This document shows positions 184-31,727 of a stretch of 46,580 nucleotides of DNA, one piece after another; within the stretch, counting starts at the first letter, position 1, and each line of letters begins with the position of its first letter. Source of the DNA: Pirellula sp. (GTDB taxonomy: Bacteria > Planctomycetota > Planctomycetia > Pirellulales > Pirellulaceae); NCBI GenBank assembly GCA_025459245.1, contig JALOQZ010000001.1:1-46580 (forward strand), written 5' to 3'. The notes under the pieces are model-generated. The model was given only the letters and a program-made list of their open reading frames with translations. It did not search any database and was not told where the DNA came from. A program made the translations under genes and the position numbers.

Positions 184-547
184 CTGCGATTAACTCGAGA
201 CTATGCGTCCCTCAGGAATGCAGATCAACGGCATTCCGACTTGTGTAATGACTTGAGAAAATCTTTGAAATCGGAGCCGTGCAACTCAGCATTCGATACT
301 ACAGTCGGCGAACTAAGAATGACTGCTGCTGTTGATAGATCTCACCAAGAAAACCTTGCTGGTTGGCGAATTCCTACGGGCTGGACAAGCCGGTACGATT
401 TGGTGGGTTATTCTTCTTCATCGTGAGTTCCGTATGCCCCCTACGGTATTGATGGAATGGATCAATGCAGCTCACTCCCTCGACGTTCACGCGGCAGGAA
501 GTGGGAATGGATCTGAATTGTGCAGGAAGAAAGTTGGGGGCACTGGT

Positions 548-3199: not shown

Positions 3200-3248
3200 G
3201 TCTAGCGATTCCATCATCGCACCCAGTTGGTGTACAAGCGAGGTTAAC

Positions 3249-3722: not shown

Positions 3723-3753
3723 TCTCTCTGCCTCCATCCTACCTTGTGCTCCT

Positions 3754-13260: not shown

Positions 13261-14976
13261 ATGCTTCGATTTTATGACAACTCGCGATGGTCTAGGTCGC
13301 TTGCTATCGCACTCATCATTGGATGGTGGATCGGTTTTTTTCCGAGAGTCATGATGGGGCAAACCGGCCCACACGGCGATCGATTCATGCACAGCAGCAA
13401 CTGCGCCCTCTGTCACGCTCATTCCGACAGAGCTATCGCAATGCGAGACAGCCGCGGACAAAACATTGCCCCCTACGATCTGTGGTCGGGGTCCATGATG
13501 GCGCAGTCCTCGAGAGATCCATACTGGAAGGCGGTCCTGTCCGCTGAGATCCTCGCCACGCCTGCACAACGCGACCACATCGTTGATTTGTGTACACGCT
13601 GCCATTCTCCGATGGCTCCGGTGGCATCGCTTCACGGAGAAACTGGATCACTTCAGTTTCTTTCACCGGGAGAACCAAACCACGAATTGGCGAGCGATGG
13701 GGTGTCCTGCACGGTCTGCCATCGGATGAGCGATGAAAAGTTAGGAACTCCCGAATCGTTCACAGGTGGCTTTGTATTCAATCAAGCCAATGAAATCTAT
13801 GGACCGCACTCAGATCCCTTCACGATGCCTATGCAGCGACACGTAGGATACACGCCGAAGCGAGGGGATCACATCATGCGATCGGCCCTTTGTGCAACCT
13901 GCCACACCGTTGTCACCGAGAGCTTCGATATCGAAGGAAAAGCAACGCACCAAACTCTGCACGAACAAGCCCCCTATCTCGAATGGCAAAATTCATCCTT
14001 CAACAACGAAATAGCGGCAAACAAAGATGCAGGCCGATCATGCCAATCCTGCCACATGCCGCAAACCGATGCTGACGGAAAGATCATATCCACTCGCATC
14101 GCTCACAATCCGGGCGGACGAGACTTCCCGTTCCTAGCCCCACGCTCTCCGTTTGGACAACACACGTTTGCAGGTGGAAATGTGTTCATGACGCAACTTA
14201 TGCGATCGAATCGCAAAGACTTGGGTATCCAAACTTCCGTCGAAGCGTTCGATCGCGTCATTCGAGCATCGCGACATCTCCTCACTGAACAGACTGCAGA
14301 GGTTTCTATCGGCAAAGCTAATCGACGCGACGGAATTGTTGAGATTCCAGTGAGCGTTTCGAATTTGTCTGGACACAAGCTACCTACTGCGTATCCATCG
14401 CGCCGCTTGTGGATTGAATTCACGATTAGCAATGAATCGAACGAACGAGTTTTTAGCTCAGGGATAATCAACCGCTCGGGTCGAATCACTAACATGTCGG
14501 GGGATCTACTCCCTTCCGAAATCGCTGGAGGCCCCATCCAGCCACATTACGATTCCATTCAAAAGAGCGATGAGGTTCAAGTCTACGAAACCATGATGAG
14601 CGACTCGAACGGAAAAGTTACCTTTTCTCTTCTTCGTGGGTCGGCGTTCCTCAAAGACAATCGTTTGCTACCGAAGGGCTGGAGCCTTGATGACGACCAA
14701 TTCAAACCCATTCAACCGAGCGGAACTGGAAGCGACGCGAATTTCCTCGGCGGTGGTGATAGCACCACCTACTCCGTAGCGCTACCACCAGGCAGATATC
14801 GCGTGGAGGCCAGATTACTTTTTCAATCCCTCTCGTCCCGTTACATGGAGGAACTGTTTCAGACGTCCTCCCCAGAAGTTGAGTTGTTTCAATCGATGTA
14901 CCGCAACATGGATCTGACCCCTGAAGTCATCGACACGGCAGTGGTTGAAATGGAACTCCCGTCAGAGGCGATGTGA
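13261..14976 (+). CDS. Periplasmic multiheme (pentaheme) c-type cytochrome
   Basis: Signal/TM N-terminus; five CxxCH motifs (CALCH, CTRCH, CTVCH, CATCH, CQSCH); GHKLPT..RRLW and KDNRLLPKG in the C-terminal half. Confidence 0.9.
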   Translation: MLRFYDNSRWSRSLAIALIIGWWIGFFPRVMMGQTGPHGDRFMHSSNCALCHAHSDRAIAMRDSRGQNIAPYDLWSGSMMAQSSRDPYWKAVLSAEILATPAQRDHIVDLCTRCHSPMAPVASLHGETGSLQFLSPGEPNHELASDGVSCTVCHRMSDEKLGTPESFTGGFVFNQANEIYGPHSDPFTMPMQRHVGYTPKRGDHIMRSALCATCHTVVTESFDIEGKATHQTLHEQAPYLEWQNSSFNNEIAANKDAGRSCQSCHMPQTDADGKIISTRIAHNPGGRDFPFLAPRSPFGQHTFAGGNVFMTQLMRSNRKDLGIQTSVEAFDRVIRASRHLLTEQTAEVSIGKANRRDGIVEIPVSVSNLSGHKLPTAYPSRRLWIEFTISNESNERVFSSGIINRSGRITNMSGDLLPSEIAGGPIQPHYDSIQKSDEVQVYETMMSDSNGKVTFSLLRGSAFLKDNRLLPKGWSLDDDQFKPIQPSGTGSDANFLGGGDSTTYSVALPPGRYRVEARLLFQSLSSRYMEELFQTSSPEVELFQSMYRNMDLTPEVIDTAVVEMELPSEAM

Positions 14977-14982
14977 TTCACG

Positions 14983-15735
14983 TCAGCGGCCAGCGACTTC
15001 CAGGAGAGTTGTGTAGCGCTTTAAGCTTCGGAGCACTAGGTACTGCGACGCGCCGATGACCGCGACAGCAACCCAGATCGGCTCCATAATGAATCGATGT
15101 TCTATGACAAAATGCTCCGCGATCTCCACAATAACAAACCCCAGGCAAATCTGACACAGTGCCGTGTACTCTCGCTTAAGAACATTCCTCAAAGAAAACG
15201 GGAGAGATGGCTTCTTCCAACCAGTGAGTCGAGGCAGAAAGGCCGGAGTCGTCTCTGCCCATTCCCTGTAACTAGCACCGAACTTCGACTGAAGAAAATC
15301 CTCTTCCGCCAACATGATACGTTCGTAGTAGAGAGCAAAGGCCAGTATGTAAATGATGGGTAGCCACCAGATCAACGGCAGGAGCATTGGTCCAAGGCCG
15401 ATTAAGAAGTTCCCCAAGTAGAGTGGATGCCTCACTAGGGAGTAGATCCCGGTGGTATTAAGTTGGGATGCAGCTTGCTTCGTCGTGTTTCGTCCCGACG
15501 TGCCTTTAGGGGTATGGCCAATCGTGATGACACGGATCGCGAATCCCAATAGGGATATCGCCATGCAGCCCGCTTCTGCGATTTCATGAAAAGCATGGCT
15601 CCCCATGGGCCACGCCATGTGCATCACCGCGATTGTTAATGGGATCATCATCAAAACAGGAAGATAGCTTCTCCATCGGAAGAGAAAGTTTCCTTGCTTC
15701 GTCAAAAGATCATTCATCATTACGAATACCATCAT
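14983..15735 (-). CDS. ICMT/PEMT-family membrane methyltransferase, resembling lipid A 1-phosphate methyltransferase LmtA
   Basis: QGNFLFRWRSYLP, TPKGTSGRNT, LNTTGIYSLVRHPLYLGNFL, YYERIMLAEEDFL..FG..Y..W...PAFLP; multiple TM helices. Confidence 0.82.
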   Translation of the reverse strand: MMVFVMMNDLLTKQGNFLFRWRSYLPVLMMIPLTIAVMHMAWPMGSHAFHEIAEAGCMAISLLGFAIRVITIGHTPKGTSGRNTTKQAASQLNTTGIYSLVRHPLYLGNFLIGLGPMLLPLIWWLPIIYILAFALYYERIMLAEEDFLQSKFGASYREWAETTPAFLPRLTGWKKPSLPFSLRNVLKREYTALCQICLGFVIVEIAEHFVIEHRFIMEPIWVAVAVIGASQYLVLRSLKRYTTLLEVAGR

Positions 15736-15809
15736 CCTTGAATGTCGCGAAATGGATATGTGGGTAAGCTAACGGTCACTCTATTACAGGTCAACATCAC
15801 TGAAACTAC

Positions 15810-15843
15810 TGCAAAATACTGCATCAGTATGCAATTACGTGCA
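15810..15843. promoter_or_regulatory. Phased TGCA array (putative bEBP enhancer/UAS) between divergent methyltransferase and PAP2 genes
   Basis: TGCA at 15810, 15820, 15830 and 15840, i.e. TGCA-N6-TGCA twice with exact 10-bp period. Confidence 0.6.
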
Positions 15844-15967
15844 GGGACTTATCAACCATGCTTAGAATGCGCGTTGGTATGACATCTTGCTTCACCGTGG
15901 CATTCAATTGTATTGTCTAGCTCAATACGAAGAATCTGATCCCAAGACGGAAAGTCATTCCGATTTC

Positions 15968-16990
15968 ATGAAGCTATTGACTTGGTATTTGGGACATCGA
16001 TTTGTTCGCTGCGTCTTCTTTTCGCTAATTGCGTTCGTTGGTTGCCGATCGTCGCTTGGACCTGCGAAGTTCACCAACCAGAGTGTTTCGGAGAATCAAC
16101 GATCGAAGAGCGATTCGTTTCGGTTTCGGTGGCCGTCGAGTAAAGGTGAATCGATCGAAATTCGTTCGATAGCCGATCGAGAGATATCGCTAGAGAATCC
16201 GCTTTTGTTCCAAGCTCCATTTGAAGGTCCGTTGCCGTTGAACACAATGGACGGCTTGCAGGAGGAAAGCGAATCGGGATCGATTTGGGAGCGACTTTGG
16301 AGCGACCAAAAGAATTTTTATTCTGCCGAATCGCTCTCGTTGCTAGGAGGTGGGGTGCTCATTGGTGGTGCGATGGCGAATTCTTCGATCGACGAAGGAA
16401 TTCAGCGACATTTTCAAAGCAGCGTTCGCGGAGCGACTTCGGATGAATGGTTCGAGTCCTTGCACGCAAGCAAGGAGCTTGGCAACGGCATGTACACGCT
16501 GCCTGTTTTCGCATCGGCTTGGGCTGCAGGTGAATTGCTGCCGGATAATCGTTTCGCGGAGACGAGTGGTAGATGGGGGGAAAGATCCCTTCGCGGTTTT
16601 GTCGCTGGAGCTCCTCCGCTTATCGCTTTGCAGCAGTTGACGGGGGGATCTCGCCCAATGGAGAGTAGTTCAAGTTCGAACTGGCAGCCGTTTCAAGACG
16701 TCAACGGCGTGAGCGGTCACTCGTTCATGGGCTCGCTTCCGTTCATCACCGCAGCAAAGATGACCGATAACCTAGCATATAAATCATTATTTTATGCGGG
16801 CTCTGCGATCGCTCCACTTTCGCGTGTCAACGATAACGCGCATTATCCATCCCAAGTCGCCCTCGGATGGTGGATGGCTTATCTCGCCGCGAGTGCGGTG
16901 AATGCGACGGACAATCCTCAGTCGAAGTGGCGCTTTTATCCATACCTTTCGGGCGACGGAACAGGTGTTATGGCCGAGATGCGATTCTAA
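15968..16990 (+). CDS. PAP2-family phosphatase (possible lipoprotein)
   Basis: PAP2 motifs C1 (..GGSRP), C2 (VSGHS), C3 (SRVNDNAHYPSQ); N-terminal hydrophobic stretch ending FVGC. Start placed at ATG 15968; the ORF is open from 15887. Confidence 0.8.
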   Translation: MKLLTWYLGHRFVRCVFFSLIAFVGCRSSLGPAKFTNQSVSENQRSKSDSFRFRWPSSKGESIEIRSIADREISLENPLLFQAPFEGPLPLNTMDGLQEESESGSIWERLWSDQKNFYSAESLSLLGGGVLIGGAMANSSIDEGIQRHFQSSVRGATSDEWFESLHASKELGNGMYTLPVFASAWAAGELLPDNRFAETSGRWGERSLRGFVAGAPPLIALQQLTGGSRPMESSSSSNWQPFQDVNGVSGHSFMGSLPFITAAKMTDNLAYKSLFYAGSAIAPLSRVNDNAHYPSQVALGWWMAYLAASAVNATDNPQSKWRFYPYLSGDGTGVMAEMRF

Positions 16991-17011
16991 AGCAAACCCG
17001 CCTATTGCGAC

Positions 17012-17047
17012 TGCAAGAATTAGCACAGGTTCCTGCAATCTCCTGCA
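17012..17047. promoter_or_regulatory. Tandem TGCA-N6-(T/A)GCA boxes (putative bEBP UAS) upstream of the regulator gene
   Basis: TGCAAGAATTAGCA (17012-17025) and TGCAATCTCCTGCA (17034-17047), about 130 bp upstream of a sigma54 motif. Confidence 0.55.
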
Positions 17048-17175
17048 CCGTTCGTCGATTAGAATGAAGTGCTGACGCCGTGGTTTTTGGGAAATCAGGA
17101 GCTTGCACCTTTGTTTTCTTTGGCTTTTTGCGACTTCGGGAAACCAATGTGCCAAGCTTCGCACTTGCGATGGAA

Positions 17176-17192
17176 TTGGTATGAGTCGTGCT
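17176..17192 (+). promoter_or_regulatory. Putative sigma54 (-24/-12) promoter of the NtrC-family regulator
   Basis: TTGGTATGAGTCGTGCT: GG-N10-GC spacing, resembling YTGGCACGrNNNTTGCW. Confidence 0.6.
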
Positions 17193-17293
17193 TAACTGCG
17201 GAGCAAGGTAACGGAGCGAGGTTGCGAGCGTGTAATCTCCATCGCGTTGGATAAAGCGCACAGGACCCTCGAGTGGACTTAGGCTGGAACGGA

Positions 17294-18658
17294 ATGGAAC
17301 GAACGACGCAATTTGGTGTCTTGATAGTCGATGATGAGCCCAATATTCGGTCTGGGTTTGCCAAGGGGTTAGCTGCGGAGGCAGATCTTGTCGAAACTGC
17401 GGGGAACGCAGTCGAAGCACTTGAGAAGTTTCAATCTCGCGAGCATGCGCTCGTTATTGTCGACGTGCGGTTGAACTGCGAGATGTCAGGGCTTGAGTTG
17501 CTGCGCAGAATCATCCATTTGCGTCCGCAGACAGCAGTGATCGTTATTACCGCGCATGGTACTGTGGAGACGGCAGTAGAGGCGATGCGATCCGGTGCGT
17601 TCGATTTCATCTTGAAACCGGTCGATTTGAATTTGGTTCGGCAGCAAGTTCGGAAGGCTCGTGAGCATTTCGATTTGCTAAACGAAAACGCTTTGCTTCG
17701 ACATCAATTAGCCGAGTCGGGGGAGATTTCTCGCATCGTCGCCGGCGGCGCCGCGATGGAAGAGGTCTTCCGGCAGATTCGGCAAGTTGCAGCGACCGAG
17801 GCCACGGTGATGATTCACGGTGAAAGCGGGACAGGAAAGGAGCTCATTGCACGCGCTCTTCACGACTTGAGCGACCGAAACAAAGGGCCGTTTGTGGCCG
17901 TCAACCTAGGTGCATTGCCCGAAACATTGCTGGAAAGCGAATTGTTTGGTCATGAGAAAGGTTCTTTTAGCGGTGCAATCCGTCAAAAACCTGGCTGCTT
18001 TGAGCAGGCCGCAGGCGGGACATTGTTTCTTGACGAAGTGACCGAGATGTCGGCCAAGAGCCAAGTGGATTTGCTTCGAGTTTTGGAGACAGGCGAATTC
18101 AATCGCATCGGAGGTGAAGCGCGACTTCAGTCCAGCGCCCGTATCATCTCCGCAACCAATCGCTCCGTACAGGACTTGATCGAGGATGGTACCTTTCGCG
18201 AAGATCTCTTCTATCGACTGAACATCATTCCTATTGAAGTTCCCCCGCTTCGGAAACGGCGGGAAGACATCCCATTACTGGTGCAGCACTTTCTGGAGCA
18301 CTTTTGTAGTCGGCATCGAAAGGACTTGAAGTCGGTCACACCAGAGGCGATGCAGATCCTTAGTACAGCGCCCTGGCCAGGAAACGTGCGACAATTGCGA
18401 AATGTCATCGAGCGTTTGGTCATCGTGGGCGCATCCAGCGCCATTGGCATCCAAGACTTACCGAGCGATCTGCAAAAAGGATCACGGCTCGTGCAATCCA
18501 CTCCAACTTCGCTAGCGGAGGCGTTGGACGAATGCGAAAAGATCACCATTCAAGCCGCATTAGAAGCCTGTAATCTTCATCGTGAGAACACGGCGAAGCT
18601 GTTGGGAATCAGCGTTCGCACGTTGCATTACAAAATGAGTCGACATGGCATGCACTAA
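17294..18658 (+). CDS. Sigma54-dependent response regulator (NtrC/ZraR/AtoC family: REC-AAA+-Fis HTH)
   Basis: IVDDE receiver, Walker A GESGTGKE, ESELFGHEKGSFSGA, Walker B LFLDEV, FREDLFYRLN, WPGNVRQL, C-terminal TAKLLGISVRTLHYKM HTH. Confidence 0.95.
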   Translation: MERTTQFGVLIVDDEPNIRSGFAKGLAAEADLVETAGNAVEALEKFQSREHALVIVDVRLNCEMSGLELLRRIIHLRPQTAVIVITAHGTVETAVEAMRSGAFDFILKPVDLNLVRQQVRKAREHFDLLNENALLRHQLAESGEISRIVAGGAAMEEVFRQIRQVAATEATVMIHGESGTGKELIARALHDLSDRNKGPFVAVNLGALPETLLESELFGHEKGSFSGAIRQKPGCFEQAAGGTLFLDEVTEMSAKSQVDLLRVLETGEFNRIGGEARLQSSARIISATNRSVQDLIEDGTFREDLFYRLNIIPIEVPPLRKRREDIPLLVQHFLEHFCSRHRKDLKSVTPEAMQILSTAPWPGNVRQLRNVIERLVIVGASSAIGIQDLPSDLQKGSRLVQSTPTSLAEALDECEKITIQAALEACNLHRENTAKLLGISVRTLHYKMSRHGMH

Positions 18659-18663
18659 TCGAA

Positions 18664-18873
18664 TCACCCCTCTCGCAGCTCATGCCCCATGCAGCGTTGG
18701 GCATCTAATTTGATTCGCATATTTTCACTCGCCTCCTCTTCGTTTTGAATCTGGTTGGGGGTTGAGCCCTGACGAGGGCTCTGGCTTCGAATCGCCGCCC
18801 CGGATTGTGGGATATCCGAGCCTAGCATCGCAGTCAAAAAAGAAATGAGAATCGACGTCCGGAACCTAAGCAT
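18664..18873 (-). CDS. Small (69 aa) putatively exported protein, antisense between regulator and kinase
   Basis: AGGAG RBS just upstream of the ATG; basic then hydrophobic N-terminus; near-consensus sigma54 promoter ~120 bp upstream; stop codon lies 5 bp from the convergent regulator stop. Confidence 0.55.
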   Translation of the reverse strand: MLRFRTSILISFLTAMLGSDIPQSGAAIRSQSPRQGSTPNQIQNEEEASENMRIKLDAQRCMGHELREG

Positions 18874-18993
18874 GATCCACTCCTACGTGTAGATTGGTAG
18901 GCCATTCAAACACAGGAAGACATTCCGTTGTTTTTGTTAGGCCAAGGGACTTGTGACGGGGAAAACCCGATGCGTTTGCCACTCTCAGTCCAA

Positions 18994-19010
18994 TGCACTT
19001 AGCGTGCCAA
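18994..19010 (-). promoter_or_regulatory. Sigma54 (-24/-12) promoter, minus strand
   Basis: Minus strand reads TTGGCACGCTAAGTGCA, a near-perfect match to YTGGCACGrNNNTTGCW with GG-N10-GC. Confidence 0.75.
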
Positions 19011-19143
19011 TGCAACATGCACTTGAATCCATGCCCGTCGCGTGTTTTTTTGGGCACTTCCATGTGTGCTCCAATCAATGCTGCAACAATTGGCTGCAGA
19101 TACTGCAAAAAAACTCCTATTCTGACCAACTCTAGGTTTGCCT

Positions 19144-20493
19144 ATGTTCGAGATAAACAGCAATCGAAGCGTTAAAGCTTTCGCATTTGTGCTTGGACTT
19201 CTCAGCCTTTTCTCCCTTACCGTCACCGCTTGGGTGCTTCTAAACGTTCGACACGAGCAAGCCATAGTATCCCAGCTCATTCGCCATCTTGACGGTAGTG
19301 ATTTGGTGGTGGCCGATGAGCTTTCGAGTGAATTGGGGCTGCAGGGGAGCCTTTCCTTTCTTCTCGTGCTCAACATTTTTGCGACCGGAATTGCGTTTTC
19401 GTTCGTTCTTCGCGGGTATTTTAGCAGCCAGCAAAATCTGCAAGATGTCAAAGTCTTATCCACCGACATTCTGGCTAGCATGGATGCAGGCGTGATTACA
19501 ACCGACTTAGAGGGACGCATCACCAGCCTCAATAGTCGTGGGGGTGAATTACTAGGCCCCAGCTACACAGGTCTTAACCAAACCATCGAACAACTCGGAG
19601 CGGAACACGCCTTGCTTGCATCGATATGCAAGGAACTCCGAGCGCATGGAACACCCATCCGCGACCGGGATTACCAGATTGTTCGAAACGGTCATCGCAA
19701 GACTCTTCGAGCCGGCTGCACAATTCTGAGAAACAGACATAAGGATGAGGTAGGGATGGTAATACACGTGCGAGACGTCACCGAGAAAGCATTCATGGAA
19801 GAACGTTTAAGGAGGATGGAACGCTACGTGGGTCTTGGATCGTTGGCCGCAGGGCTGCAGCATGAGATCAAGAATCCGCTCAATGCTTTGTCGTTGCATA
19901 TTCAACTGCTTTGCGAATCGCTGGCAAAAGAGCATTTGAATGCAGAGATCAGCGAGACCCTAAGCATCCTCAATTCGGAGGTGAGACGCATTAGTGAGGT
20001 TCTCGATGGATTCCGAAACTATGCGTCGGTCGACGAGATTCGGCTTGCGCCGGTCGACATGGCGATGCTGATTGAAAAGCTGATCCGATTGCTTCGCCCC
20101 GATGCAGAGCAAAAGCGTGTCGCGCTCGAGTTCCATTGCCCCCAAGATTGCTCATCGCAGCTCATTGCCGACGGAGCAAAGCTGGAGCAAGTCCTCCTGA
20201 ACCTTGCATTGAATGCCGTTGCTGCAATGCCGAACGGCGGAAAGCTGCTCTTCACGATATCGAGCGACTCGGAAGAAATGAGGATTCAAATCGCAGATTC
20301 AGGAAATGGAATTCCTGCGGAGATCCGAGGCCAGATTTTCGATCCCTATTTCACCACCCGAAAGGACGGCATTGGTATGGGGCTCGCCATTTGCGAGAAA
20401 ATCATCCGTCAGCACGATGGTCGTATCGAGTTTCAGACAGGCAACTCCGGCACTACTTTCTCCATCCATCTGCCCTTATCGCAGGAGCGGTAA
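19144..20493 (+). CDS. Two-component sensor histidine kinase (2 TM, short periplasmic loop, PAS, HisKA, HATPase)
   Basis: H-box LAAGLQHEIKNPL, N-box QVLLNLALNA, DSGNGI, IFDPYFTT, GIGMGLAI; PAS-like ILASMDAGVITTD. Confidence 0.93.
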   Translation: MFEINSNRSVKAFAFVLGLLSLFSLTVTAWVLLNVRHEQAIVSQLIRHLDGSDLVVADELSSELGLQGSLSFLLVLNIFATGIAFSFVLRGYFSSQQNLQDVKVLSTDILASMDAGVITTDLEGRITSLNSRGGELLGPSYTGLNQTIEQLGAEHALLASICKELRAHGTPIRDRDYQIVRNGHRKTLRAGCTILRNRHKDEVGMVIHVRDVTEKAFMEERLRRMERYVGLGSLAAGLQHEIKNPLNALSLHIQLLCESLAKEHLNAEISETLSILNSEVRRISEVLDGFRNYASVDEIRLAPVDMAMLIEKLIRLLRPDAEQKRVALEFHCPQDCSSQLIADGAKLEQVLLNLALNAVAAMPNGGKLLFTISSDSEEMRIQIADSGNGIPAEIRGQIFDPYFTTRKDGIGMGLAICEKIIRQHDGRIEFQTGNSGTTFSIHLPLSQER

Positions 20494-20505
20494 GGCAACT
20501 TCGAC

Positions 20506-20539
20506 TGCTAGGTATTGCACGAAGGTGCAACTCCTTGCA
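20506..20539. promoter_or_regulatory. Phased TGCW array (putative bEBP UAS) upstream of the RND operon
   Basis: TGCT at 20506 and TGCA at 20516, 20526, 20536: exact 10-bp period, same layout as 15810-15843. Confidence 0.6.
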
Positions 20540-20736
20540 CCCTTCTTGAGGCAAACGATTAGACGCCGAGCGAATTTTCAAAATTGTTTCCGTTTTCATC
20601 GTCTCTGCCGTCTCTTAGGCCGAAACGATAGTTGTCCTCAAATGACTGGCTAAATCGACTTGCTCGAATGAGTTAATAGTCCATTGCCTTAGCGTTTCCT
20701 TCTCGTACGAGCGGCCTCCCCTCAAGCTTGCCCGGA

Positions 20737-20753
20737 TTGGCCCGATGGTTGCT
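20737..20753 (+). promoter_or_regulatory. Sigma54 (-24/-12) promoter of the RND efflux operon
   Basis: TTGGCCCGATGGTTGCT, one mismatch from YTGGCACGrNNNTTGCW, ~90 bp upstream of the MFP start. Confidence 0.75.
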
Positions 20754-20845
20754 ATAGGTGCATATATCACCGCAGATTGGGAATCCTCCAGCCGTCGGAA
20801 TCCACGCTGGTACCGCTGCCGCTTGAAAACTACTCGTTCAAAACC

Positions 20846-22114
20846 ATGCGACGATCCGTGAAGAGAAATCTACTGCTGTTGTGTTTGTTCGTGCCCACTC
20901 TGCCAGCCTGCGATGCCATCAAGGCAAAGTTCAGTAGCGAGGGGCAATCGCAGCTGACCGAGAACGGTAAAGGGACCGGGCATGAAGAGGCCGTTCATGG
21001 GGGAATTCATCAAGACGGTCCTCATTCGACCAATGCAAAGCAGGGGCAGGTGGTGCATACAACCGAAGTGCATAAGCCGGGTGAGCATGGCGCTTCAGAG
21101 CACGAGCATCACACCCACAAGATTGTCGCCACTGAATCGGTCTCGCGCGACGTTGTAAGTACACAATCCTACGTGTGCCAGATCCATTCTTGCCGTCACA
21201 TCGAAGTTCGCGCATTAGAGCGAGGTTATCTCGAAGAAATCTCCATTCGCGAAGGACAGCAAGTTCAACAGGGAGATGTTCTCTTTCGCATTCTTCCTCC
21301 AGTCTTTCAAGCAAAACTCGATACCGACGTCGCTGAGGCAAAGCTCGTTCAAATCGAGCTCGACAATGCCAGGAGACTCTTCGACCAGAAAGTGGTATCG
21401 GCGCAAGAAGTTGCTCTCGCAGAAGCCAAGTTAGCAAAAGCGCAGGCGCAGGTGAAACTGTCCCTCGCGGAGTTGAACTTTACCATCATTCGAGCTTCTT
21501 TTCCAGGAATTGTTGATCGTCTGCGCAGCCAGCAAGGGAGTTTGGTGTCGGAAGGGGACGTGCTTACCACGCTTTCCGACAATAGCACGATGTGGGTTTA
21601 CTTCAACGTTCCCGAATCTCGCTATCTGGAGTACCGTTCCCAAGTCGCTCAGCATGCCGCCGATATGTCGGTGGAATTAGTTTTAGCGAACCACACCAAA
21701 TTCAACCAACCAGGAAAGATCGGCGCTATCGAAGCTGACTTCAATAGTGAAACAGGTAATATTGCTTTCCGCGCGGACTTCCCCAACCCAGAAGGACTCT
21801 TACGACACGGTCAAACAGGGAATGTCCTCATCCATCGACAACTACACAACGCGATTGTTATTCCACAACGAGCGACTTTCGAGATTCTGGCGAACCGATA
21901 TGTCTACGTCATCGACGAAAACAACGTTATTCAACAAAAGCAGATCAATATCAAAACGGAACTCGAGGATATCTTTGTCATCGACAGCGGTATCGAAAGC
22001 GGAACGCGTATCGTTCTCGAGGGGATACGAGATGTGAAGGTAGGAGACCAAGTGGAATTCGAATTCCGCGATCCCAACCAAGTGCTTCAGAATCTCAAGA
22101 ACAAAGCTGAGTAA
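20846..22114 (+). CDS. RND efflux membrane fusion protein (lipoprotein) with His-rich N-terminal segment
   Basis: Lipobox LPA-C; EVRALERGYLEEI..EGQQVQQGDVLFRI, IRASFPGIV, FPNPEGLLRHG, IVIPQRA. Start placed at ATG 20846. Confidence 0.92.
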   Translation: MRRSVKRNLLLLCLFVPTLPACDAIKAKFSSEGQSQLTENGKGTGHEEAVHGGIHQDGPHSTNAKQGQVVHTTEVHKPGEHGASEHEHHTHKIVATESVSRDVVSTQSYVCQIHSCRHIEVRALERGYLEEISIREGQQVQQGDVLFRILPPVFQAKLDTDVAEAKLVQIELDNARRLFDQKVVSAQEVALAEAKLAKAQAQVKLSLAELNFTIIRASFPGIVDRLRSQQGSLVSEGDVLTTLSDNSTMWVYFNVPESRYLEYRSQVAQHAADMSVELVLANHTKFNQPGKIGAIEADFNSETGNIAFRADFPNPEGLLRHGQTGNVLIHRQLHNAIVIPQRATFEILANRYVYVIDENNVIQQKQINIKTELEDIFVIDSGIESGTRIVLEGIRDVKVGDQVEFEFRDPNQVLQNLKNKAE

Positions 22115-22126
22115 AGGAGCACAAGG

Positions 22127-25100
22127 ATGTTTGTACGTTTTCTTCATCGCCCTGCACTCGCGATTGTCATTTCCCTCCTTATCCTTTTCATGGGGGGGCT
22201 TTCTATTCAGTCGTTGCCTATCTCCCAGTTCCCATCGGTCGCACCGCCGAGCGTCGTGGTGTCGGTCTCGTATCCCGGCGCAAGCGCGAATGTGCTTGTC
22301 GACTCTGTCATGGTGATCCTTGAACAAGCCATCAATGGCGTTCAAGACATGCGATACATGATCGGCGATGCTACAAGTGCAGGTGAAGGAACGATCCAAG
22401 TTATCTTTGAGCCAGGGACCGATCCCAACGTCGCCGTATTGAACGTGAACAACCGCATACAAGCGGTCAAAAACAATTTGCCACCTATCGTGGATCGCGA
22501 AGGCATTATCGTCATGCAAAACATGTCGAGCATGCTAATGTACGTAAACGTCTTTAGTACCGAGGAGGGAGTCGATCAGAACTTTCTCTTCAATTATGCA
22601 ACGGCGAATATCCTGCCTGAAATCAAGCGCATTCAGGGGGTCGGTCGAGCTAGTATCCTAGGGAACCGAGCCTATGCGATGCGGGTGGAACTGAATTTGG
22701 ACCGATTGCGCGCCTATAATCTTTCGTCGGATGACGTGATGAAGGCGATTGCGGAGCAGAGCATGATCGGCTCCCCTGGACGACTTGGCCAAGCGACAGG
22801 CCGAACGTCACAAACCGTCGAGTACGTTCTGACTTGGGTGGGACGTTATAACAAGCCGGAGCAATACGAGAGCATCATCCTTCGCGCGAATCCCGATGGT
22901 CAAATTATTCGAATCAAAGACGTAGCGACCGTCTCACTTGGCTCGTCGTTTTACGACTTGTACTCGGATATCGATGGTCACCCCTCCGCAGCAATCGTGC
23001 TTAAGCAAACTCCCGGATCGAATGCGACGGTTGTGATTGAAAAGGTCAAGGAGAAACTGGAGCAAATCAAAAAGGATTCGTTCCCGCCGGGAATGGACTT
23101 TGAAGTGAGCTATGACGTTTCCAAGTTTCTGGAGGCCTCAATCGAGAAGGTTCTTCACACATTAATCGAAGCGTTCATCTTGGTTTCGCTGGTGGTGTTT
23201 CTCTTCCTGGGGGACTTCCGAAGTACGCTCATCCCGACCCTTGCTGTTCCCGTTTCTTTGATCGGAACCTTCTTCTTTCTCCTGTTGTTCGGGATGTCCA
23301 TCAATCTCATCACGCTATTTGCCTTGGTACTCGCCATTGGTGTGGTTGTCGATGATGCGATCGTGGTAGTGGAAGCGGTGCATGCGAAAATGGCGGAGAA
23401 GCATCTTTCCCCCTATGCCGCGACAAAAGAAGTTGTCCATGAAATTAGTGGTGCAATCATCGCGATTACGCTGGTGATGACTGCCGTATTTATCCCTGTA
23501 ACGTTCATGACAGGCCCCGTTGGAGTCTTCTACCGACAATTCGGTCTGACGATGGCGATGTCGATCGTTTTGTCAGGGGTCGTCGCTCTTACGCTGACAC
23601 CTGTGTTGTGCGCGATTATTCTCAAGCCGCACGGTCACGGTGATGCTCCAAAAGGACTTATACCTCGGTTCTTTGTGTTTATGGATCGCACACTCAACAA
23701 GATGGGCGGGGTCGGTGGCTTTATTGCGAGGTGGATCTGGATCTTCTCGCTCAGTGCAGCCTGTGGTTATGGTGTCTATCGATTTCTGAGTTTGGAACCC
23801 ATCATCCATGCAACCCATGATATGTTTTTACTCACGCCGCTTCGGATCTTGTTGATCTCAGTCGCGGCAACGATTTGGATGGTCCTTACCATCCGGTCCA
23901 TCATGTCGCGAGGACGACCAGCTGACCAAGTCTCTCCAGGACCAATGGCAATTTTTATCGCTGGGATAAACCAGATTATCGAAGGAATCACCAATGTATA
24001 TGCGGGGATCCTCAAACGTATCGTCACTCTCCGCACCTTGACCATGCTGGTCATCACCGCGTTTACCGTTGGGATTTATTCCGTCAATAATGTTCTACCT
24101 TCAGGATTCATTCCGCTTGAAGATCAAGGGATTATTTACGGGGTTATCCAGACACCCCCAGGTTCGACCTTGGAGTACACGAATTCGAAGGCGCGAGAGC
24201 TCCAAGGAATCTGCGAAGAGCTGGAGGATATTACATCTGTTTCGTCGCTCGCAGGCTATGAGGTACTCACGGAAGGTCGGGGATCGAACGCTGGGACTTG
24301 CATCATCAACCTCAAGCCCTGGGCGGAACGCAAACGGACTTCCAAACAAGTCATTGAGGAGCTTGAAAAGCGTGGAAGGGATATCTCCAACATCAAGCTG
24401 GAATTCTTCGAGCCCCCAGCCGTTCCTGGGTTCGGTGCCGCTGGTGGCTTCGCATTGAATTTGCTCGACAAAACCAATTCAGGGGATTACGAAGCGTTAG
24501 GAGCCGTAACTGACAAATTCATGACGGCGCTGGCAAAACGCAAGGAACTAAAGGGACTCTTTACGTTCTTTGCTGGGAACTACCCGCAATACGAGATCAT
24601 CATCGATAACGATATCGCGATGCAAAAGGGGGTATCGATCGCAGAGGCGATGAACAACCTGTCGATCGTCATCGGTAGTACTTGGGAGCAAGGATTCATT
24701 CGATTCGGTCAATTCTACAAGGTCTATGTGCAAGCGGCGCCGGAGTTTCGTCGCTACCCGGAAGACCTTTCGAATATGTTTGTGAAAAACGATCGCGGAG
24801 AGATGGTGCCTTACTCTGCGTTCATGCGATTGAAAAAGAAGCAAGGCCTCAACGAAATCAGCCGATACAACCTCTATCCTTCGGCTCCCATTCAAGGATC
24901 GCCGGCGGCAGGCTACAGCAGCGGGCAAGCAATCGCTGCGATTCGAGAAGTTGCTGCGGAGACTTTACCTCGCGGCTATGGAATCGATTGGCAAGGCCTA
25001 TCGTTCGACGAAGCGAAGAGTGGGAATACGGCCGTGTACATCTTCATCATCGTTGTGGTGTTCGTGTACATGGTCTTGGTCGGGCAATACGAGAGTTTCA

Positions 25101-25579
25101 TACTTCCTTTAGCTGTCATTGTTTCGCTCCCAGTCGGGATTTTCGGATCCTTCTTCTTATTGCAAGCAATGGGGCTGGCGAATGATGTCTATTGCCAGAT
25201 AGGTTTGGTGATGCTCGTCGGACTGCTTGGGAAGAACGCCATTTTGATTATCGAATTCGCCATCCAGCGGAATCGCGAAGGGGTCAGCATTAAGGATGCG
25301 GCGATCGAAGGAGGAAAGCTTCGATTCCGCCCGATTCTTATGACCTCATTTGCGTTCATCGCAGGTCTCGTCCCGTTGGTTCGAGCGACGGGGCCAGGAG
25401 CGATCGGCAATCGAACGATTGGAACCACTGCGGTGGGGGGAATGTTACTAGGAACGGTCATTGGAGTTCTCGTGATTCCGGGACTCTATTATCTCTTCGC
25501 CAAGATGGCGGAGGGACGGAAGTTAATCAAGGATGAGCATGATGAGCCGCTTTTCGAAATCTTGGAACGGACGCATTAA
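22127..25579 (+). CDS. RND efflux transporter permease (HAE1/AcrB-like), with an extra hydrophobic insertion
   Basis: LPISQFPSVAPP, AIGVVVDDAIVVVE, KNAILIIEFA, RFRPILMTSFAFIAG; AAGGAG RBS; 1150 aa. Confidence 0.95.
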   Translation: MFVRFLHRPALAIVISLLILFMGGLSIQSLPISQFPSVAPPSVVVSVSYPGASANVLVDSVMVILEQAINGVQDMRYMIGDATSAGEGTIQVIFEPGTDPNVAVLNVNNRIQAVKNNLPPIVDREGIIVMQNMSSMLMYVNVFSTEEGVDQNFLFNYATANILPEIKRIQGVGRASILGNRAYAMRVELNLDRLRAYNLSSDDVMKAIAEQSMIGSPGRLGQATGRTSQTVEYVLTWVGRYNKPEQYESIILRANPDGQIIRIKDVATVSLGSSFYDLYSDIDGHPSAAIVLKQTPGSNATVVIEKVKEKLEQIKKDSFPPGMDFEVSYDVSKFLEASIEKVLHTLIEAFILVSLVVFLFLGDFRSTLIPTLAVPVSLIGTFFFLLLFGMSINLITLFALVLAIGVVVDDAIVVVEAVHAKMAEKHLSPYAATKEVVHEISGAIIAITLVMTAVFIPVTFMTGPVGVFYRQFGLTMAMSIVLSGVVALTLTPVLCAIILKPHGHGDAPKGLIPRFFVFMDRTLNKMGGVGGFIARWIWIFSLSAACGYGVYRFLSLEPIIHATHDMFLLTPLRILLISVAATIWMVLTIRSIMSRGRPADQVSPGPMAIFIAGINQIIEGITNVYAGILKRIVTLRTLTMLVITAFTVGIYSVNNVLPSGFIPLEDQGIIYGVIQTPPGSTLEYTNSKARELQGICEELEDITSVSSLAGYEVLTEGRGSNAGTCIINLKPWAERKRTSKQVIEELEKRGRDISNIKLEFFEPPAVPGFGAAGGFALNLLDKTNSGDYEALGAVTDKFMTALAKRKELKGLFTFFAGNYPQYEIIIDNDIAMQKGVSIAEAMNNLSIVIGSTWEQGFIRFGQFYKVYVQAAPEFRRYPEDLSNMFVKNDRGEMVPYSAFMRLKKKQGLNEISRYNLYPSAPIQGSPAAGYSSGQAIAAIREVAAETLPRGYGIDWQGLSFDEAKSGNTAVYIFIIVVVFVYMVLVGQYESFILPLAVIVSLPVGIFGSFFLLQAMGLANDVYCQIGLVMLVGLLGKNAILIIEFAIQRNREGVSIKDAAIEGGKLRFRPILMTSFAFIAGLVPLVRATGPGAIGNRTIGTTAVGGMLLGTVIGVLVIPGLYYLFAKMAEGRKLIKDEHDEPLFEILERTH

Positions 25580-27218
25580 GCGAAGCAGCTTCGCTGCCGT
25601 GATCGCGGGGGCGACGCTGATTCCCGGGTGCAAGATTCCTGAAATCTGTCGCCCAGAGGCAATGCGTCCCCTCCCACAAGCCTACGATCGCAACAACGAT
25701 CCTGCACAAGGAATCGTGAGCGACGAAAATTCGGCATGTCTCGGATGGCGGGAATTTTTTAACGATCCTACGCTGCATAACTTGATTTCCGAATCGCTTT
25801 CAGGGAACCAAGAACTCAAAATCCTGGCCCAAGACATTCGCATCGCGAACAACGAGTACCGCGCCAGACGCGGGCTTTTGTTCCCCTTCGCGTCGATTGG
25901 GACATCCGCTGGAATCGAAAAATCAAGCCGCTTCACTCGCAACGGTGCAGTGGAAGATCAACTACAAGCAGCCCCTGGAAAAGGCTTTCCTGAACCACTC
26001 CCCAATTTTCTTGTCGCTGCCGACGTGTCCTGGGAAATCGATATTTGGCGAAAGCTGCGCAATGCGAGAGACGCCCAGGCTCTCCGATTCCTTGGTACGC
26101 AAGCGGGGCGAAACTACGTCGTGACGAGAGTCGTTGCCGAAGTCGCTGAGAACTACTACGAGCTTCTCGCTCTGGACAATCGACTGGAGACACTGAATCG
26201 AACCATCGAAATCCAACAACAGAGTTTGGATACGGCTCGCGCTCTAAAAGATGCAGCTCGTGGGACAGAGCTTGCTGTGCAACGCTTTCAAGCGGAAGTG
26301 CAAAAGAATCAAAGTGAGAAGCTGATAATCCAGCAGGAAATCACAGAAACCGAGAACCGAATCAACTACCTAGCCGGGCGATTCCCACAGAAGGTAGAAC
26401 GGCCTTCCGTCGAGTTTCTTTCGCTTTATTTGCCTGCCATTGGGGTTGGATTCCCTTCCCAGCAGTTGTTGAATCGATCAGATATTCGCCAAGCGGAACG
26501 CGAGGTAGCCGCATCAGGGCTGGACGTTCGCGTCGCGCGGGCTCAATTCTTTCCGTCTTTGATTCTGACTGCCGGTGTTGGATACGAGGCATTCAATACA
26601 AAGTATTTGTTCTCAAGTCCTGAATCATTGATCTACAACGCGGCAGGTGGCCTGGTCGCACCCCTGATTAACCGCTCTGCAATCAAAGCAGACTATCTCA
26701 ATGCGAACGCTCGCCAACTGCAAGCTGTGTACGAGTATCAACAGACGGTCCTCAATGCCCACATCGAAGTCATCAATCAGTTGTCATTGGTGGAGAACTA
26801 TACCCGCAGCCTAGAAGTAAAAGCGCAACAGCTGCAATCTCTCGAAGCGTCGGTAGACAATGCGACCAAGCTTTTTCAGAATGCGAGAGGCGAGTACATC
26901 GAAGTGCTTCTAGCCCAGCGGGATATGATGGAAGCCAGACTTGTACTGATCGACACCAAGCAAAAGCAGCTCGCTGGGGTCATCAAAGCCTACCAGGCTC
27001 TCGGTGGCGGCGGACGCCCCGGCGACTTCGTCGTCGAGGAATTGGAGTCTCTTGAAGCCCCCGTTTTGGATAGTGCTGAGAACCAAACGATAGAAAGCAC
27101 ACCGATCCAGATTCGAACGGAAATGGGGAAACAAGTGATCGGCCGATCCGAAGGTGCACCAATCGCGATGGTTCAGGAAGCGCAGACAGCTACGTTCGAT
27201 GTTCAAGGAAGTCGATAG
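25533..27218 (+). CDS. RND outer membrane factor (TolC/OprM/NodT-family lipoprotein)
   Basis: Lipobox-like IPG-C; WREFFNDPTL, SWEIDIWRKLR, LLNRSDIRQAE, ARAQFFPS, YQALGGG; start overlaps the permease end (exact ATG among 25533/25539/25542 uncertain). Confidence 0.92.
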   Translation: MSMMSRFSKSWNGRIKRSSFAAVIAGATLIPGCKIPEICRPEAMRPLPQAYDRNNDPAQGIVSDENSACLGWREFFNDPTLHNLISESLSGNQELKILAQDIRIANNEYRARRGLLFPFASIGTSAGIEKSSRFTRNGAVEDQLQAAPGKGFPEPLPNFLVAADVSWEIDIWRKLRNARDAQALRFLGTQAGRNYVVTRVVAEVAENYYELLALDNRLETLNRTIEIQQQSLDTARALKDAARGTELAVQRFQAEVQKNQSEKLIIQQEITETENRINYLAGRFPQKVERPSVEFLSLYLPAIGVGFPSQQLLNRSDIRQAEREVAASGLDVRVARAQFFPSLILTAGVGYEAFNTKYLFSSPESLIYNAAGGLVAPLINRSAIKADYLNANARQLQAVYEYQQTVLNAHIEVINQLSLVENYTRSLEVKAQQLQSLEASVDNATKLFQNARGEYIEVLLAQRDMMEARLVLIDTKQKQLAGVIKAYQALGGGGRPGDFVVEELESLEAPVLDSAENQTIESTPIQIRTEMGKQVIGRSEGAPIAMVQEAQTATFDVQGSR

Positions 27219-31484: not shown

Positions 31485-31727
31485 GGATAGCTGGGGAGAG
31501 ATGGACCGGCGAAGCACTGGTCTGAAAACCGTTGGCTTGTTGGAGGGAATCGTGGTCTAGCCTTCCTGACACTTTGAGGGCGAAGGCAAGACGCCGAGGG
31601 GTTCCATGGTAACTAAAAACTTCTGCTCCGTCACTTGCCATCGCCATGTGAGGAGTCGGTTATTAGATTAAAATCGAGTCCCCTTCCCTCCGCGATGTCC
31701 TCCCACCCTACCTGCTTGATTCCCCTC

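What the first reader, a model, noticed from the sequence alone, without database searches (positions are those of the whole stretch)
13261..27218. Candidate self-contained sigma54 regulon linking a pentaheme cytochrome, lipid A-type modifying enzymes, a small protein and a His-rich RND pump
Seen in sequence: three GG-N10-GC sigma54 motifs (17176+, 18994-, 20737+) and TGCA-N6-TGCA boxes in three intergenic regions of this block (15810, 17012, 20506), plus a looser TGCA cluster at 19082-19107. All lie around an NtrC-family regulator and a PAS histidine kinase. Established: bEBPs bind tandem palindromic UAS about 80-200 bp upstream of sigma54 promoters. Inference: this two-component system autoregulates and co-controls an RND pump, a small exported protein and a divergent LmtA-like/PAP2 pair, forming an envelope-remodelling/metal-stress module analogous to ZraSR-ZraP. 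I do not recognise this combination as described. The cytochrome is included by adjacency only.
Basis: partly seen in the sequence, partly recalled or inferred. Interest (0 to 1): 0.8.

Follow-up and report, generated by a model that had tools for sequence, protein, structure and literature searches.

The report
Planctomycete bicarbonate-pump and pH switch
A two-component regulator of planctomycete bacteria goes with a conserved DNA motif that lies before an efflux pump and an unknown small protein here, and in relatives before bicarbonate pumps and across the predicted promoter of carbonic anhydrase, so it likely switches cells to active carbon uptake when CO2 is scarce or pH is high.

Summary
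The motifs are real. Paired TGCA-N6-TGCA palindromes and three sigma54 sites lie where stated, and the genome's three best motif hits are in this block. The motif tracks the kinase: exact four-TGCA arrays in 29 of 41 kinase-positive vs 15 of 159 kinase-negative Pirellulaceae genomes, and 8 of 8 vs 0 of 7 in a second family. The metal/envelope reading is not supported. The pump is HAE1 (AcrB/CmeB type), and in relatives the motif precedes the DabAB CO2 pump (20 of 29 vs 0 of 31 controls), SbtA, SulP, an anion porin and Na+/H+ antiporters. It also sits in a repressor position on cytoplasmic beta-carbonic anhydrase (9 of 15). Best reading: a sigma54 switch for CO2 limitation or alkaline pH, pumps on and leak-causing anhydrase off (signal inferred, 0.6). 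The window holds a trimmed version: autoregulation, RND operon and a new 69-aa protein family. Its own dabA lacks the motif. lmtA-like/PAP2 have the array but no sigma54 site. The cytochrome is a bystander.

The parts
14983..15735 (-). LmtA-like membrane methyltransferase (ICMT/PEMT clan); uncertain member, possibly repressed
   Evidence: TIGR04571 246 bits, under cut-off 325; beside the system in 3 of 81 loci; 42% identical homologue inside the motif-led DAB operon of G178; no sigma54 site
15810..15843 (.). Paired UAS array, four TGCA at 10-bp period, without a sigma54 site
   Evidence: Top genome-wide hit; conserved in L031 and L104; no sigma54 site on either side; sigma70 scan at chance level
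15968..16990 (+). PAP2-family probable lipoprotein; uncertain member (start at ATG 15968 inferred)
   Evidence: PF01569; C2 SGH and C3 SR-x5-H motifs kept, C1 Lys replaced by Gln (motif names recalled); homologues beside the system in L090 and G173
17012..17047 (.). Paired UAS before the regulator gene
   Evidence: Second genome-wide hit; conserved in L031, L104
17060..17065 (+). Conserved TAGAAT, candidate sigma70 -10 box whose -35 region would lie under the UAS (glnAp1/p2-like, inferred)
   Evidence: TTAGAATG invariant in window, L031, L104
17177..17192 (+). Sigma54 -24/-12 site of the regulator gene
   Evidence: Conserved TGGTA...GTGC in three genomes; 145-165 bp from the UAS
17294..18658 (+). 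NtrC-family bEBP (REC, AAA+, Fis HTH), loop-1 variant GSFSGA
   Evidence: Pfam; below all named equivalog cut-offs shown, best AtoC 455 vs 714; loop and recognition helix conserved in 53 orthologues
18664..18873 (-). 69-aa protein of an unnamed family: conserved hydrophobic N-helix, variable S/T-rich linker, conserved C-helix E-x3-I-x2-[DE]-A-R-x3-G-x-E-L
   Evidence: 15 aligned homologues from loci; 50 hits at E<=0.001 among 50%-identity representatives, 49 of them short; third-position bias 30 of 46 differences vs L031; no Pfam family; helices 3-18 and 39-68
18994..19009 (-). Sigma54 site of the small-protein gene
   Evidence: One mismatch to consensus; a matching site recurs before the homologues
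19082..19107 (.). Looser TGCA-N9-TGCA-N5-TGCA cluster between small gene and kinase
   Evidence: Same spacing in L031 and L104; does not reach the matrix threshold
19144..20493 (+). Sensor kinase: two predicted TM helices, ~35-aa periplasmic hairpin, cytoplasmic PAS, HisKA, HATPase
   Evidence: Pfam; model and PAS fold match; conserved loop residues E38, Q39, D53, E59, L60
20506..20539 (.). Paired UAS of the RND operon
   Evidence: Third genome-wide hit; UAS before the MFP gene in 18 of 20 kinase-positive vs 0 of 20 kinase-negative genomes
20738..20753 (+). Sigma54 site of the RND operon
   Evidence: One mismatch; score 14.5
20846..22114 (+). RND membrane-fusion lipoprotein with His-rich N-terminal linker
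   Evidence: TIGR01730 over cut-off; CzcB and CusB models far under; 4-12 His in 23 homologues
22127..25579 (+). HAE1 (AcrB/CmeB-type) RND permease
   Evidence: TIGR00915 over cut-off, TIGR00914 under; nearest solved structures CmeB, MexB
25533..27218 (+). Outer-membrane factor
   Evidence: TIGR01845 over cut-off

Best explanation
The window encodes a sensor kinase and an NtrC-type activator, and paired TGCA-N6-TGCA palindromes that the activator likely binds lie before its own gene, an HAE1 efflux operon and a small-protein gene here and before bicarbonate-uptake and pH-homeostasis genes in relatives, so the pair likely responds to CO2 shortage or alkaline pH. Shown by sequence: unit (c/g)TGCA(A)-N4-(T)TGCA(c/g), two units 20-21 bp apart, a sigma54 site typically 110-235 bp downstream; targets in relatives dabA-dabB-nuoM-like-sulP, sbtA, CA-like genes, OprO/P porin, NhaD, a CPA-type Na+/H+ exchanger, an Ehr complex, the RND operon and the small protein. 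Inferred: phosphorylated regulator binds the pair of sites and opens the sigma54 promoter; where the array lies just downstream of a sigma70 -10 box with no sigma54 site (cytoplasmic beta-carbonic anhydrase) it represses. The predicted output is DAB/SbtA pumps on and free anhydrase off, which would stop pumped bicarbonate from leaking out as CO2. In the window's lineage dabA and the anhydrase have no site; what remains is autoregulation, the RND pump, the small protein (likely a membrane-anchored feedback modulator of the kinase or of the pump) and a sigma54-less site over lmtA-like/PAP2, possibly repressing.
For: Motif tracks the kinase: 29 of 41 vs 15 of 159 genomes, 8 of 8 vs 0 of 7 in family f2; reversed-pattern control in 6 of 201. 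dabA: paired array in 20 of 29 kinase-positive vs 0 of 31 kinase-negative upstream regions, sigma54 site in 21 vs 2, also where dabA lies on another contig or far from the kinase (G119, G122, G146, G161, G244, G423). In f2, 6 of 8 kinase-positive genomes have the array before dabA. Array-bearing DabA keep the Zn ligands CxD, H, C in 14 of 14 full-length copies (residues as in 10.1101/476713). SbtA: both copies among 41 kinase-positive genomes lie beside the kinase with array and sigma54 site, plus 2 of 2 in the GTDB loci. Controls: other genes of the same loci 1 of 327; ammonium transporters of the same genomes 0 of 30 although 12 have a sigma54 site. Beta-CA: array ends 25-72 bp before the ATG in 9 of 15 genes, none with a sigma54 site towards the gene, 7 of 9 with a >=5/6 TATAAT-like box 16-37 bp before the array (random 60-bp windows 2.2%; other side of the same arrays 0 of 9). 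In G049 and G423 the CA array has no divergent dabA or sigma54 site to serve. NhaD (G014), Na+/H+ exchanger (G500) and Ehr without NiFe CxxC (G030, G061, G147) carry array plus sigma54 site. PMC10880623 (passages) states that cytoplasmic CA would dissipate transporter-built bicarbonate and suggests differential expression. rpoN is present; GAFSGA and GSFTGA loops are listed as active variants in PMC4641369 (passages).
Against: No binding, start-site or expression data; the signal is inferred from the target list alone. The window's own dabA (C247) and SulP-CA fusion (C387) have no array, nor do 9 of 29 dabA copies of kinase-positive genomes, so in this organism the output is not carbon uptake. 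The most constant target is the RND pump (18 of 20), which has no known carbon role and outside planctomycetes sits with unrelated OmpR-type systems and no CA/SulP genes. 6 of 15 beta-CA genes lack the array, and those 15 are biased towards loci fetched for arrays. In 7 of 9 cases the CA array is shared with a divergent dabA, so its place could be incidental. DAB pumps use CO2, which fits neutral or acid pH as well as alkaline (PMC12628692, PMC10880623 passages). Genomes are related, so the Fisher values overstate; the matrix was trained on kinase/regulator/MFP upstream regions of partly the same genomes. The exact loop GSFSGA was found in no paper. PMC10880623 also notes models in which moderate CA plus transporter co-expression does not leak.
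Confidence: 0.6

Rival explanations
1. The same regulon answers loss of proton-motive force or cytoplasmic pH/Na+ imbalance in general; DAB, Ehr, NhaD, ClC and the RND are recruited as ion-coupled membrane machines, and carbon uptake is a by-product.
For: Nearly all targets are cation- or proton-coupled membrane complexes; the kinase has only a ~35-aa periplasmic hairpin plus a cytoplasmic PAS; the window's lineage keeps the pump and drops dabA.
Against: Does not explain SbtA in 4 of 4 cases or the repressor-placed site on beta-CA.
Confidence: 0.14
2. An acid-stress regulon of the EvgAS/PhoPQ kind: RND pump, ClC, lipid A-type modification and a SafA/MgrB-like small protein, with DAB taking up CO2 at low pH.
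For: ClC beside the system in 4 of 81 loci, lmtA-like and PAP2 recurrences, small single-helix protein, His-rich MFP linker; DAB uses CO2. EvgAS/MdtEF analogy is recalled.
Against: SbtA, SulP and an anion porin serve bicarbonate, scarce at low pH; NhaD works at alkaline pH (recalled); ClC shows array plus sigma54 site in 0 of 4 by the tally.
Confidence: 0.12
3. One reading: a ZraSR-like metal/envelope-stress module that exports metal through a His-rich RND and remodels lipid A.
For: His-rich MFP linker in 23 of 23 homologues printed; conserved acidic loop residues and PAS His/Cys in the kinase; a related RND lies beside a two-component pair and genes that look like eptA and dgkA in 8-9 metagenome loci (labels by eye, not by a family scan); MgtE or CorA near the kinase in 3 loci.
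Against: Permease is HAE1, not HME; ZraR/ZraS models fail; no CzcA/CusA, P1B-ATPase, CDF or ZraP gene appeared among the annotated array-led genes; dominant targets are DAB, SbtA, CA.
Confidence: 0.1
4. The arrays are bound by another, unlinked factor, or are a mobile repeat that travels with the kinase locus.
For: 15 kinase-negative genomes have an exact array; half of the kinase genes have an array without a sigma54 site (30 of 60).
Against: Six of those 15 are plain 10-bp tandem repeats, G189 has a frameshifted kinase beside its array; spacers vary freely while TGCA and the 20-21 bp period stay; 8 of 8 vs 0 of 7 in f2.
Confidence: 0.04

Closest known systems
NtrB/NtrC at glnAp1/glnAp2 (recalled)
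   Same: Kinase with PAS plus REC-AAA+-HTH activator; paired palindromic UAS; activation of sigma54 promoters and repression of an overlapped sigma70 promoter by the same sites; autoregulation.
   Different: Membrane-bound kinase; different motif and 20-21 bp period; TIGR01818 427 vs cut-off 559; ammonium transporters lack the motif.
AtoS/AtoC and ZraS/ZraR-ZraP of E. coli
   Same: Best-scoring named models for both proteins; sigma54 two-component design; divergent small gene as in zraP-zraSR (recalled).
   Different: All scores far under cut-off; short periplasmic loop; small protein is not of the Spy/CpxP family; targets are neither ato nor zra genes. PMC12316311 (passages) labels planctomycete sigma54-preceded NtrC-family genes as ZraR by annotation only.
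Regulators of CO2-concentrating mechanisms: LysR-type CcmR/CmpR/CbbR and the LysR and Crp/Fnr regulators of Halothiobacillus
   Same: Same kind of target set (DAB, SbtA, SulP/BicA, CA); high-CO2-requiring LysR and Crp/Fnr genes in 10.1101/476713 (passages).
   Different: One-component sigma70 regulators in autotrophs; here a membrane kinase and sigma54 activator in heterotrophs, with predicted repression of the free CA.
DabAB / DAC / MpsAB pumps
   Same: PF10070 plus NuoL-like partner, Zn ligands intact.
   Different: Operon adds a NuoM-like subunit and a SulP often fused to P-II; its regulation is what is described here. It is not in the window.
MgrB, SafA (PhoQ) and AcrZ (AcrB)
   Same: Small regulon-encoded protein with one hydrophobic helix beside a kinase and an HAE1 pump; SafA is 65 aa (PMC12648545 passages).
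   Different: No sequence family match; uncharged stretch only ~14 residues; binding not tested.
Leptospira LmtA
   Same: Full-length match to TIGR04571 (E 5e-73).
   Different: Under the cut-off; substrate untested.

Membership tests
Sigma54 bEBP (NtrC family) | REC, AAA+ with Walker A/B and arginine fingers, Fis-type HTH | tested here: met
   Pfam PF00072, PF00158, PF02954; motifs located
Sigma54 bEBP (NtrC family) | GAFTGA loop able to engage sigma54 | tested here: inconclusive
   GSFSGA in window and 32 of 53 orthologues, GAFSGA 10, GSFTGA 9, GAFTGA 2; single variants listed as active, double variant not found in print
Sigma54 bEBP (NtrC family) | UAS 80-250 bp from -24/-12 promoters, rpoN in genome | tested here: met
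   Median 168 bp, 10-90% 111-234; rpoN in 5 of 5 genomes
ZraSR-ZraP | ZraR and ZraS equivalog scores | tested here: not met
   364 vs 760 and 178 vs 479
ZraSR-ZraP | Spy/CpxP-family periplasmic partner | tested here: not met
   No family for the window protein; no family shared by more than 1 of 52 members
ZraSR-ZraP | Induction by Zn/Pb or envelope damage | not testable with these tools
   Needs expression data
AtoSC | Equivalog scores and ato targets | tested here: not met
   455 vs 714, 258 vs 646; no ato-like gene among annotated neighbours
HME (CzcA/CusA) metal RND | TIGR00914 / TIGR00999 membership | tested here: not met
   310 vs 701; 83 vs 319
HAE1 RND | TIGR00915 membership, TM4 Asp-Asp relay | tested here: met
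   1020 vs 940; VVDDAIVVVE in sequence; CmeB/MexB nearest
LmtA | TIGR04571 cut-off | tested here: not met
   246 vs 325
LmtA | Methylation of lipid A 1-phosphate | not testable with these tools
   Needs assay
LpxE/LpxF lipid A phosphatase | Intact C1 K-x6-RP motif and family model | tested here: not met
   Gln in place of Lys in 4 of 4 copies; no NCBIfam hit; motif definition recalled
DabAB pump (targets in relatives) | PF10070 with C, D, H, C ligands plus NuoL-like partner | tested here: met
DabAB pump (targets in relatives) | Energy-coupled Ci accumulation | not testable with these tools
   Needs CA-free E. coli rescue
MgrB/SafA/AcrZ-type modulator | Direct binding to kinase or pump | not tested

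The most novel reading that the evidence does not exclude
This is a membrane-bound CO2/bicarbonate (or alkaline-pH) sensor kinase driving a sigma54 switch in heterotrophs: one activator turns on DAB and SbtA pumps and, through the same sites, shuts off the cytoplasmic carbonic anhydrase, a carbon-concentrating logic without carboxysomes; a new small-protein family tunes it, and an HAE1 pump has an unrecognised role in the same response.
Probability: 0.45. Interest if true: 0.82.

Novelty: new variant of a known kind. Interest (0 to 1): 0.68.

Why it matters
How bacteria that carry both bicarbonate pumps and a cytoplasmic carbonic anhydrase avoid a futile cycle, and what DAB pumps do and how they are controlled in heterotrophs, are posed as open questions in PMC10880623 and 10.1101/476713 (passages seen). 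This system names a regulator, its site and a predicted on/off pattern, so both questions become testable in cultured planctomycetes. It would also be a two-component, sigma54 route to CO2/pH control, where the known regulators of carbon-concentrating genes are one-component LysR or Crp types, and it gives a function lead for an unannotated small-protein family and a widespread HAE1 pump.

Tried and rejected
Cytochrome as member: rejected (no UAS or sigma54 site; 1 of 81 loci; found in 1 of 4 genomes searched, 450 kb from the kinase; only weak cytochrome c3 matches in the PDB). Carbon regulon in the window's own genome: dabA and SulP-CA lack arrays; the other genome hits examined lie in coding regions or lack paired sites; the genome is 82% complete. 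RND family tied to CA/SulP outside planctomycetes (a recalled lead): not seen in 4 plasmid records or 39 longer metagenome loci, bar one ClC. Sigma70 scan of the lmtA/PAP2 gap: one hit, 0.8 expected. Best-scoring CA per genome as a sigma54 target: 0 of 30. Metatranscriptome contigs: three studies each have a contig over all or most of the small ORF, ending at 18938, 18969 and 18996 near the predicted start (~18983), and none of four runs covers lmtA-like/PAP2; contigs show neither strand nor level, so not used as evidence. Complex prediction of small protein with kinase: tool not available, nothing folded. ESM Atlas: no usable hit for the small protein. Kinase tree: quick tree only; carbon-gene neighbourhoods need at least 12 changes on it, and the window falls in a 19-row branch mostly with RND and small protein; this shows scatter, not co-evolution. 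Earlier scan findings: none returned. The 2004 in-silico study of Pirellula sigma54 activators (recalled) was not held.


Full report
1. Observation. The window comes from a Pirellulaceae planctomycete (nearest kinase rows and their labels). The block holds, in order, a five-CxxCH cytochrome (13261-14976+), an LmtA-like methyltransferase (minus), a PAP2 protein, an NtrC-family activator, a 69-aa ORF (minus), a two-TM PAS kinase and an MFP-RND-OMF operon. Six TGCA-N6-TGCA occur in 1375 bp of intergenic DNA against a resampled mean of 0.05, and triple 10-bp arrays occur nowhere else in the genome.

2. The motif. Eighty GTDB loci around kinase homologues were fetched (best 80 of 139). Regions before kinase, regulator and MFP genes, leaving out the window, L031 and L104, gave a palindromic unit (c/g)TGCA(A)-N4-(T)TGCA(c/g) in pairs 20 or 21 bp apart. 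That matrix ranks window 15808, 17010 and 20504 first in the genome. An exact four-TGCA pattern, which needs no training, hit 44 of 200 family genomes: 29 of 41 with the kinase (E<=1e-80) and 15 of 159 without; the reversed pattern hit 6 of 201. Of the 15, six are plain tandem repeats, G189 has a frameshifted kinase beside the array, G084 and G147 have arrays before dabA/CA and Ehr genes without a kinase call (unresolved; 90% and 96% complete), and six were not explained. In a phylum sample of 301 genomes the kinase was found only in the window's family and family f2; in f2 the exact array is in 8 of 8 kinase-positive and 0 of 7 kinase-negative genomes. Some G genomes and L loci may be the same organisms, and kin are not independent.

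3. Targets in relatives. Neighbour clusters in 81 loci: regulator 66, RND trio 26-30, DabA 17, OprO/P porin 16, DabB-like and NuoM-like 13 each, SulP 11, beta-CA-like 10, ClC 4, PAP2 4, LmtA-like 3, SbtA 2, cytochrome 1. Array plus downstream sigma54 site was found before dabA in 14 of 17, MFP 18 of 28, CA-like 5 of 6, SbtA 2 of 2, regulator 9 of 65, small gene 4 of 16, porin 4 of 16, SulP 3 of 11, kinase 1 of 75, lmtA-like 0 of 3, PAP2 0 of 4, cytochrome 0 of 1, and other genes 1 of 327 (partly circular for MFP, regulator and genes divergent from the kinase). A separate test on 1-kb regions before long-type dabA copies gave paired arrays in 20 of 29 kinase-positive and 0 of 31 kinase-negative genomes, and sigma54 sites in 21 and 2. 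One copy per genome was taken; the 31 controls were picked from a longer list, one had only 252 bp, and G189 and G084 (above) were not among them. Arrays also precede dabA copies unlinked to the kinase (G119, G122, G146, G161, G244, G423). For the MFP gene, a UAS within 1.3 kb plus a sigma54 site occurred in 18 of 20 kinase-positive genomes (11 of 13 unlinked) and a UAS in 0 of 20 of the 21 kinase-negative ones fetched; in 5 of the 18 the UAS lies downstream of the sigma54 site and in one 690 bp upstream. SbtA occurs in 2 of 41 kinase-positive genomes, both beside the kinase with array and sigma54 site. Ammonium transporters, a sigma54-rich control in the same genomes, gave 0 of 30 (30 of 41 genomes had a locus). 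Further single targets: NhaD operon (G014), Na+/H+ exchanger (G500), Ehr complex without NiFe CxxC (G030, G061, G147), PTS-IIA genes, a CitMHS-type transporter.

4. A repressor-type site. Fifteen canonical beta-CA genes with enough upstream DNA were among the loci held. Nine have the paired array ending 25-72 bp before the ATG, none with a sigma54 site towards the gene; seven of the nine have a >=5/6 TATAAT-like hexamer 16-37 bp before the array, against 2.2% of random 60-bp windows and 0 of 9 on the other side of the same arrays. In most, dabA is divergent and its sigma54 site lies about 140-190 bp away, so one array would activate dabA and block the CA start. In G049 the CA is 2.7 Mb from dabA and keeps a perfect array with no sigma54 site either way; G423 shows the same by eye. 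Six CA genes lack the array. PMC10880623 (passages) explains why free cytoplasmic CA would waste transporter-built bicarbonate and proposes differential expression; it also cites models in which moderate co-expression is harmless.

5. What the window holds. The regulator gene has UAS, sigma54 site and a conserved TAGAAT under the UAS, like glnAp1/p2 (recalled). The RND operon and small gene have sigma54 sites. The small protein is real: 15 aligned homologues, 50 profile hits, third-position bias, two predicted helices around a variable linker, no family or name. It was detected in 10 of 200 family genomes, all 10 with the MFP and 7 with the kinase (one match is partial), and keeps UAS and sigma54 site when unlinked (G077, G146, G171). 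Its partner is untested. The 15810 array is conserved in three close genomes but has no sigma54 site, so lmtA-like and PAP2 are not sigma54-activated from it; repression, by analogy with CA, or action as a distant enhancer of 17177 are the options. An lmtA-like gene inside the DAB operon of G178 argues for a real but secondary link. The window genome's dabA and SulP-CA have no site. The cytochrome is a bystander.

6. Mechanism. Shown: anatomy, motif, its spacing to sigma54 sites, its co-occurrence with the kinase and its targets. Inferred: binding by this regulator (about 0.9), activation and repression modes (about 0.8 and 0.65), and the signal, CO2 shortage or alkaline pH (about 0.6). DAB, SbtA, SulP, porin and CA point to inorganic carbon; NhaD, the exchanger and Ehr to pH; both shortages coincide in alkaline, photosynthetically drawn-down water (own knowledge). 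The kinase has a ~35-aa periplasmic hairpin and a PAS fold with conserved His155, Cys162, Cys192; which part senses is unknown. The role of the HAE1 pump, the most constant target, is unexplained. Rivals are general ion/pmf stress, acid stress, metal/envelope stress and an unlinked factor.

7. Known or new. It works like NtrBC and is a bEBP, with a variant loop; it is not ZraSR, AtoSC or NtrBC, and the pump is not a heavy-metal RND. Ten literature searches (listings only, except as named) found no description of a sigma54 or two-component regulator of DAB/CA genes or of this planctomycete system. Passages were read in 10.1101/476713, PMC10880623, PMC12628692, PMC12316311 (also a term search of its 11 supplements, no DUF2309 or CA entry), PMC2754498, PMC4641369 and PMC12648545. 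Subscription papers, RegPrecise, bioRxiv supplements and the 2004 Pirellula sigma54 paper were not visible and may mention parts of it. Verdict: new variant of a known kind, interest 0.68.

Noticed in passing
window 13261-14976 +: Five-CxxCH exported cytochrome with a heme-free C-terminal half; weak ExtKL and MtrC/F matches only; patchy among kin (1 of 4 genomes searched). Function unexplained.
   Followed up: partly
L040:9190-9921, L046:9281-9922, L052:9041-9925, L075:13542-14168: A beta-CA-like protein with CAD[HE]H/G in place of CSDSR lies directly before the kinase in Stieleria-type loci, with array and sigma54 site (5 of 6); it may be a non-catalytic sensing partner.
   Followed up: partly
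L315, L325, L326, L330, L332 (G157, G146, G028, G077, G171): The UAS lies 110-160 bp downstream of the sigma54 site before the MFP gene, a downstream-enhancer layout.
   Followed up: no
L286:9442-9756, L257:9367-9798, L302:9167-9595: Outside planctomycetes this RND family is preceded by an unrelated 100-160 aa ORF (N-terminal hydrophobic segment, acidic middle, ending in FRI or RAPP), recurring across low- and high-GC loci.
   Followed up: partly
L264-L274, L286: The RND homologue lies beside a response regulator/kinase pair and genes that look like eptA and dgkA (by eye).
   Followed up: no
L159:7304-15855, L420:8404-13456, L421: Ehr (hydrogenase-4-like, no NiFe CxxC) operons with PTS-IIA genes under the array.
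   Followed up: partly
L053:1309-3315: SulP fused to a C-terminal P-II domain at the end of the DAB operon; in the window's genome a SulP-CA fusion on C387.
   Followed up: no
L309, L311, L347 (G099, G191, G111): Small-protein homologues in genomes without this kinase: beside another bEBP, beside an lptF-like gene, or near htrA with arrays; may mark a paralogous system.
   Followed up: partly
L031:6842-7863: The PAP2 gene is split into two ORFs in the closest relative.
   Followed up: no
window 22127-25579 +: The permease is about 100 aa longer than AcrB; the Pfam match is in two stretches with a hydrophobic insert after residue ~525.
   Followed up: no
L078, L080, L093: Kinase homologues in bins labelled Kuenenia, Bdellovibrionales and Emcibacter nest among Planctomycetaceae rows; probably mis-binned contigs.
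   Followed up: no
window 332-5897 + and 31635-34592 +: A cheA-cheW-cheB-cheR cluster, and a 985-aa ORF with no Pfam family.
   Followed up: no
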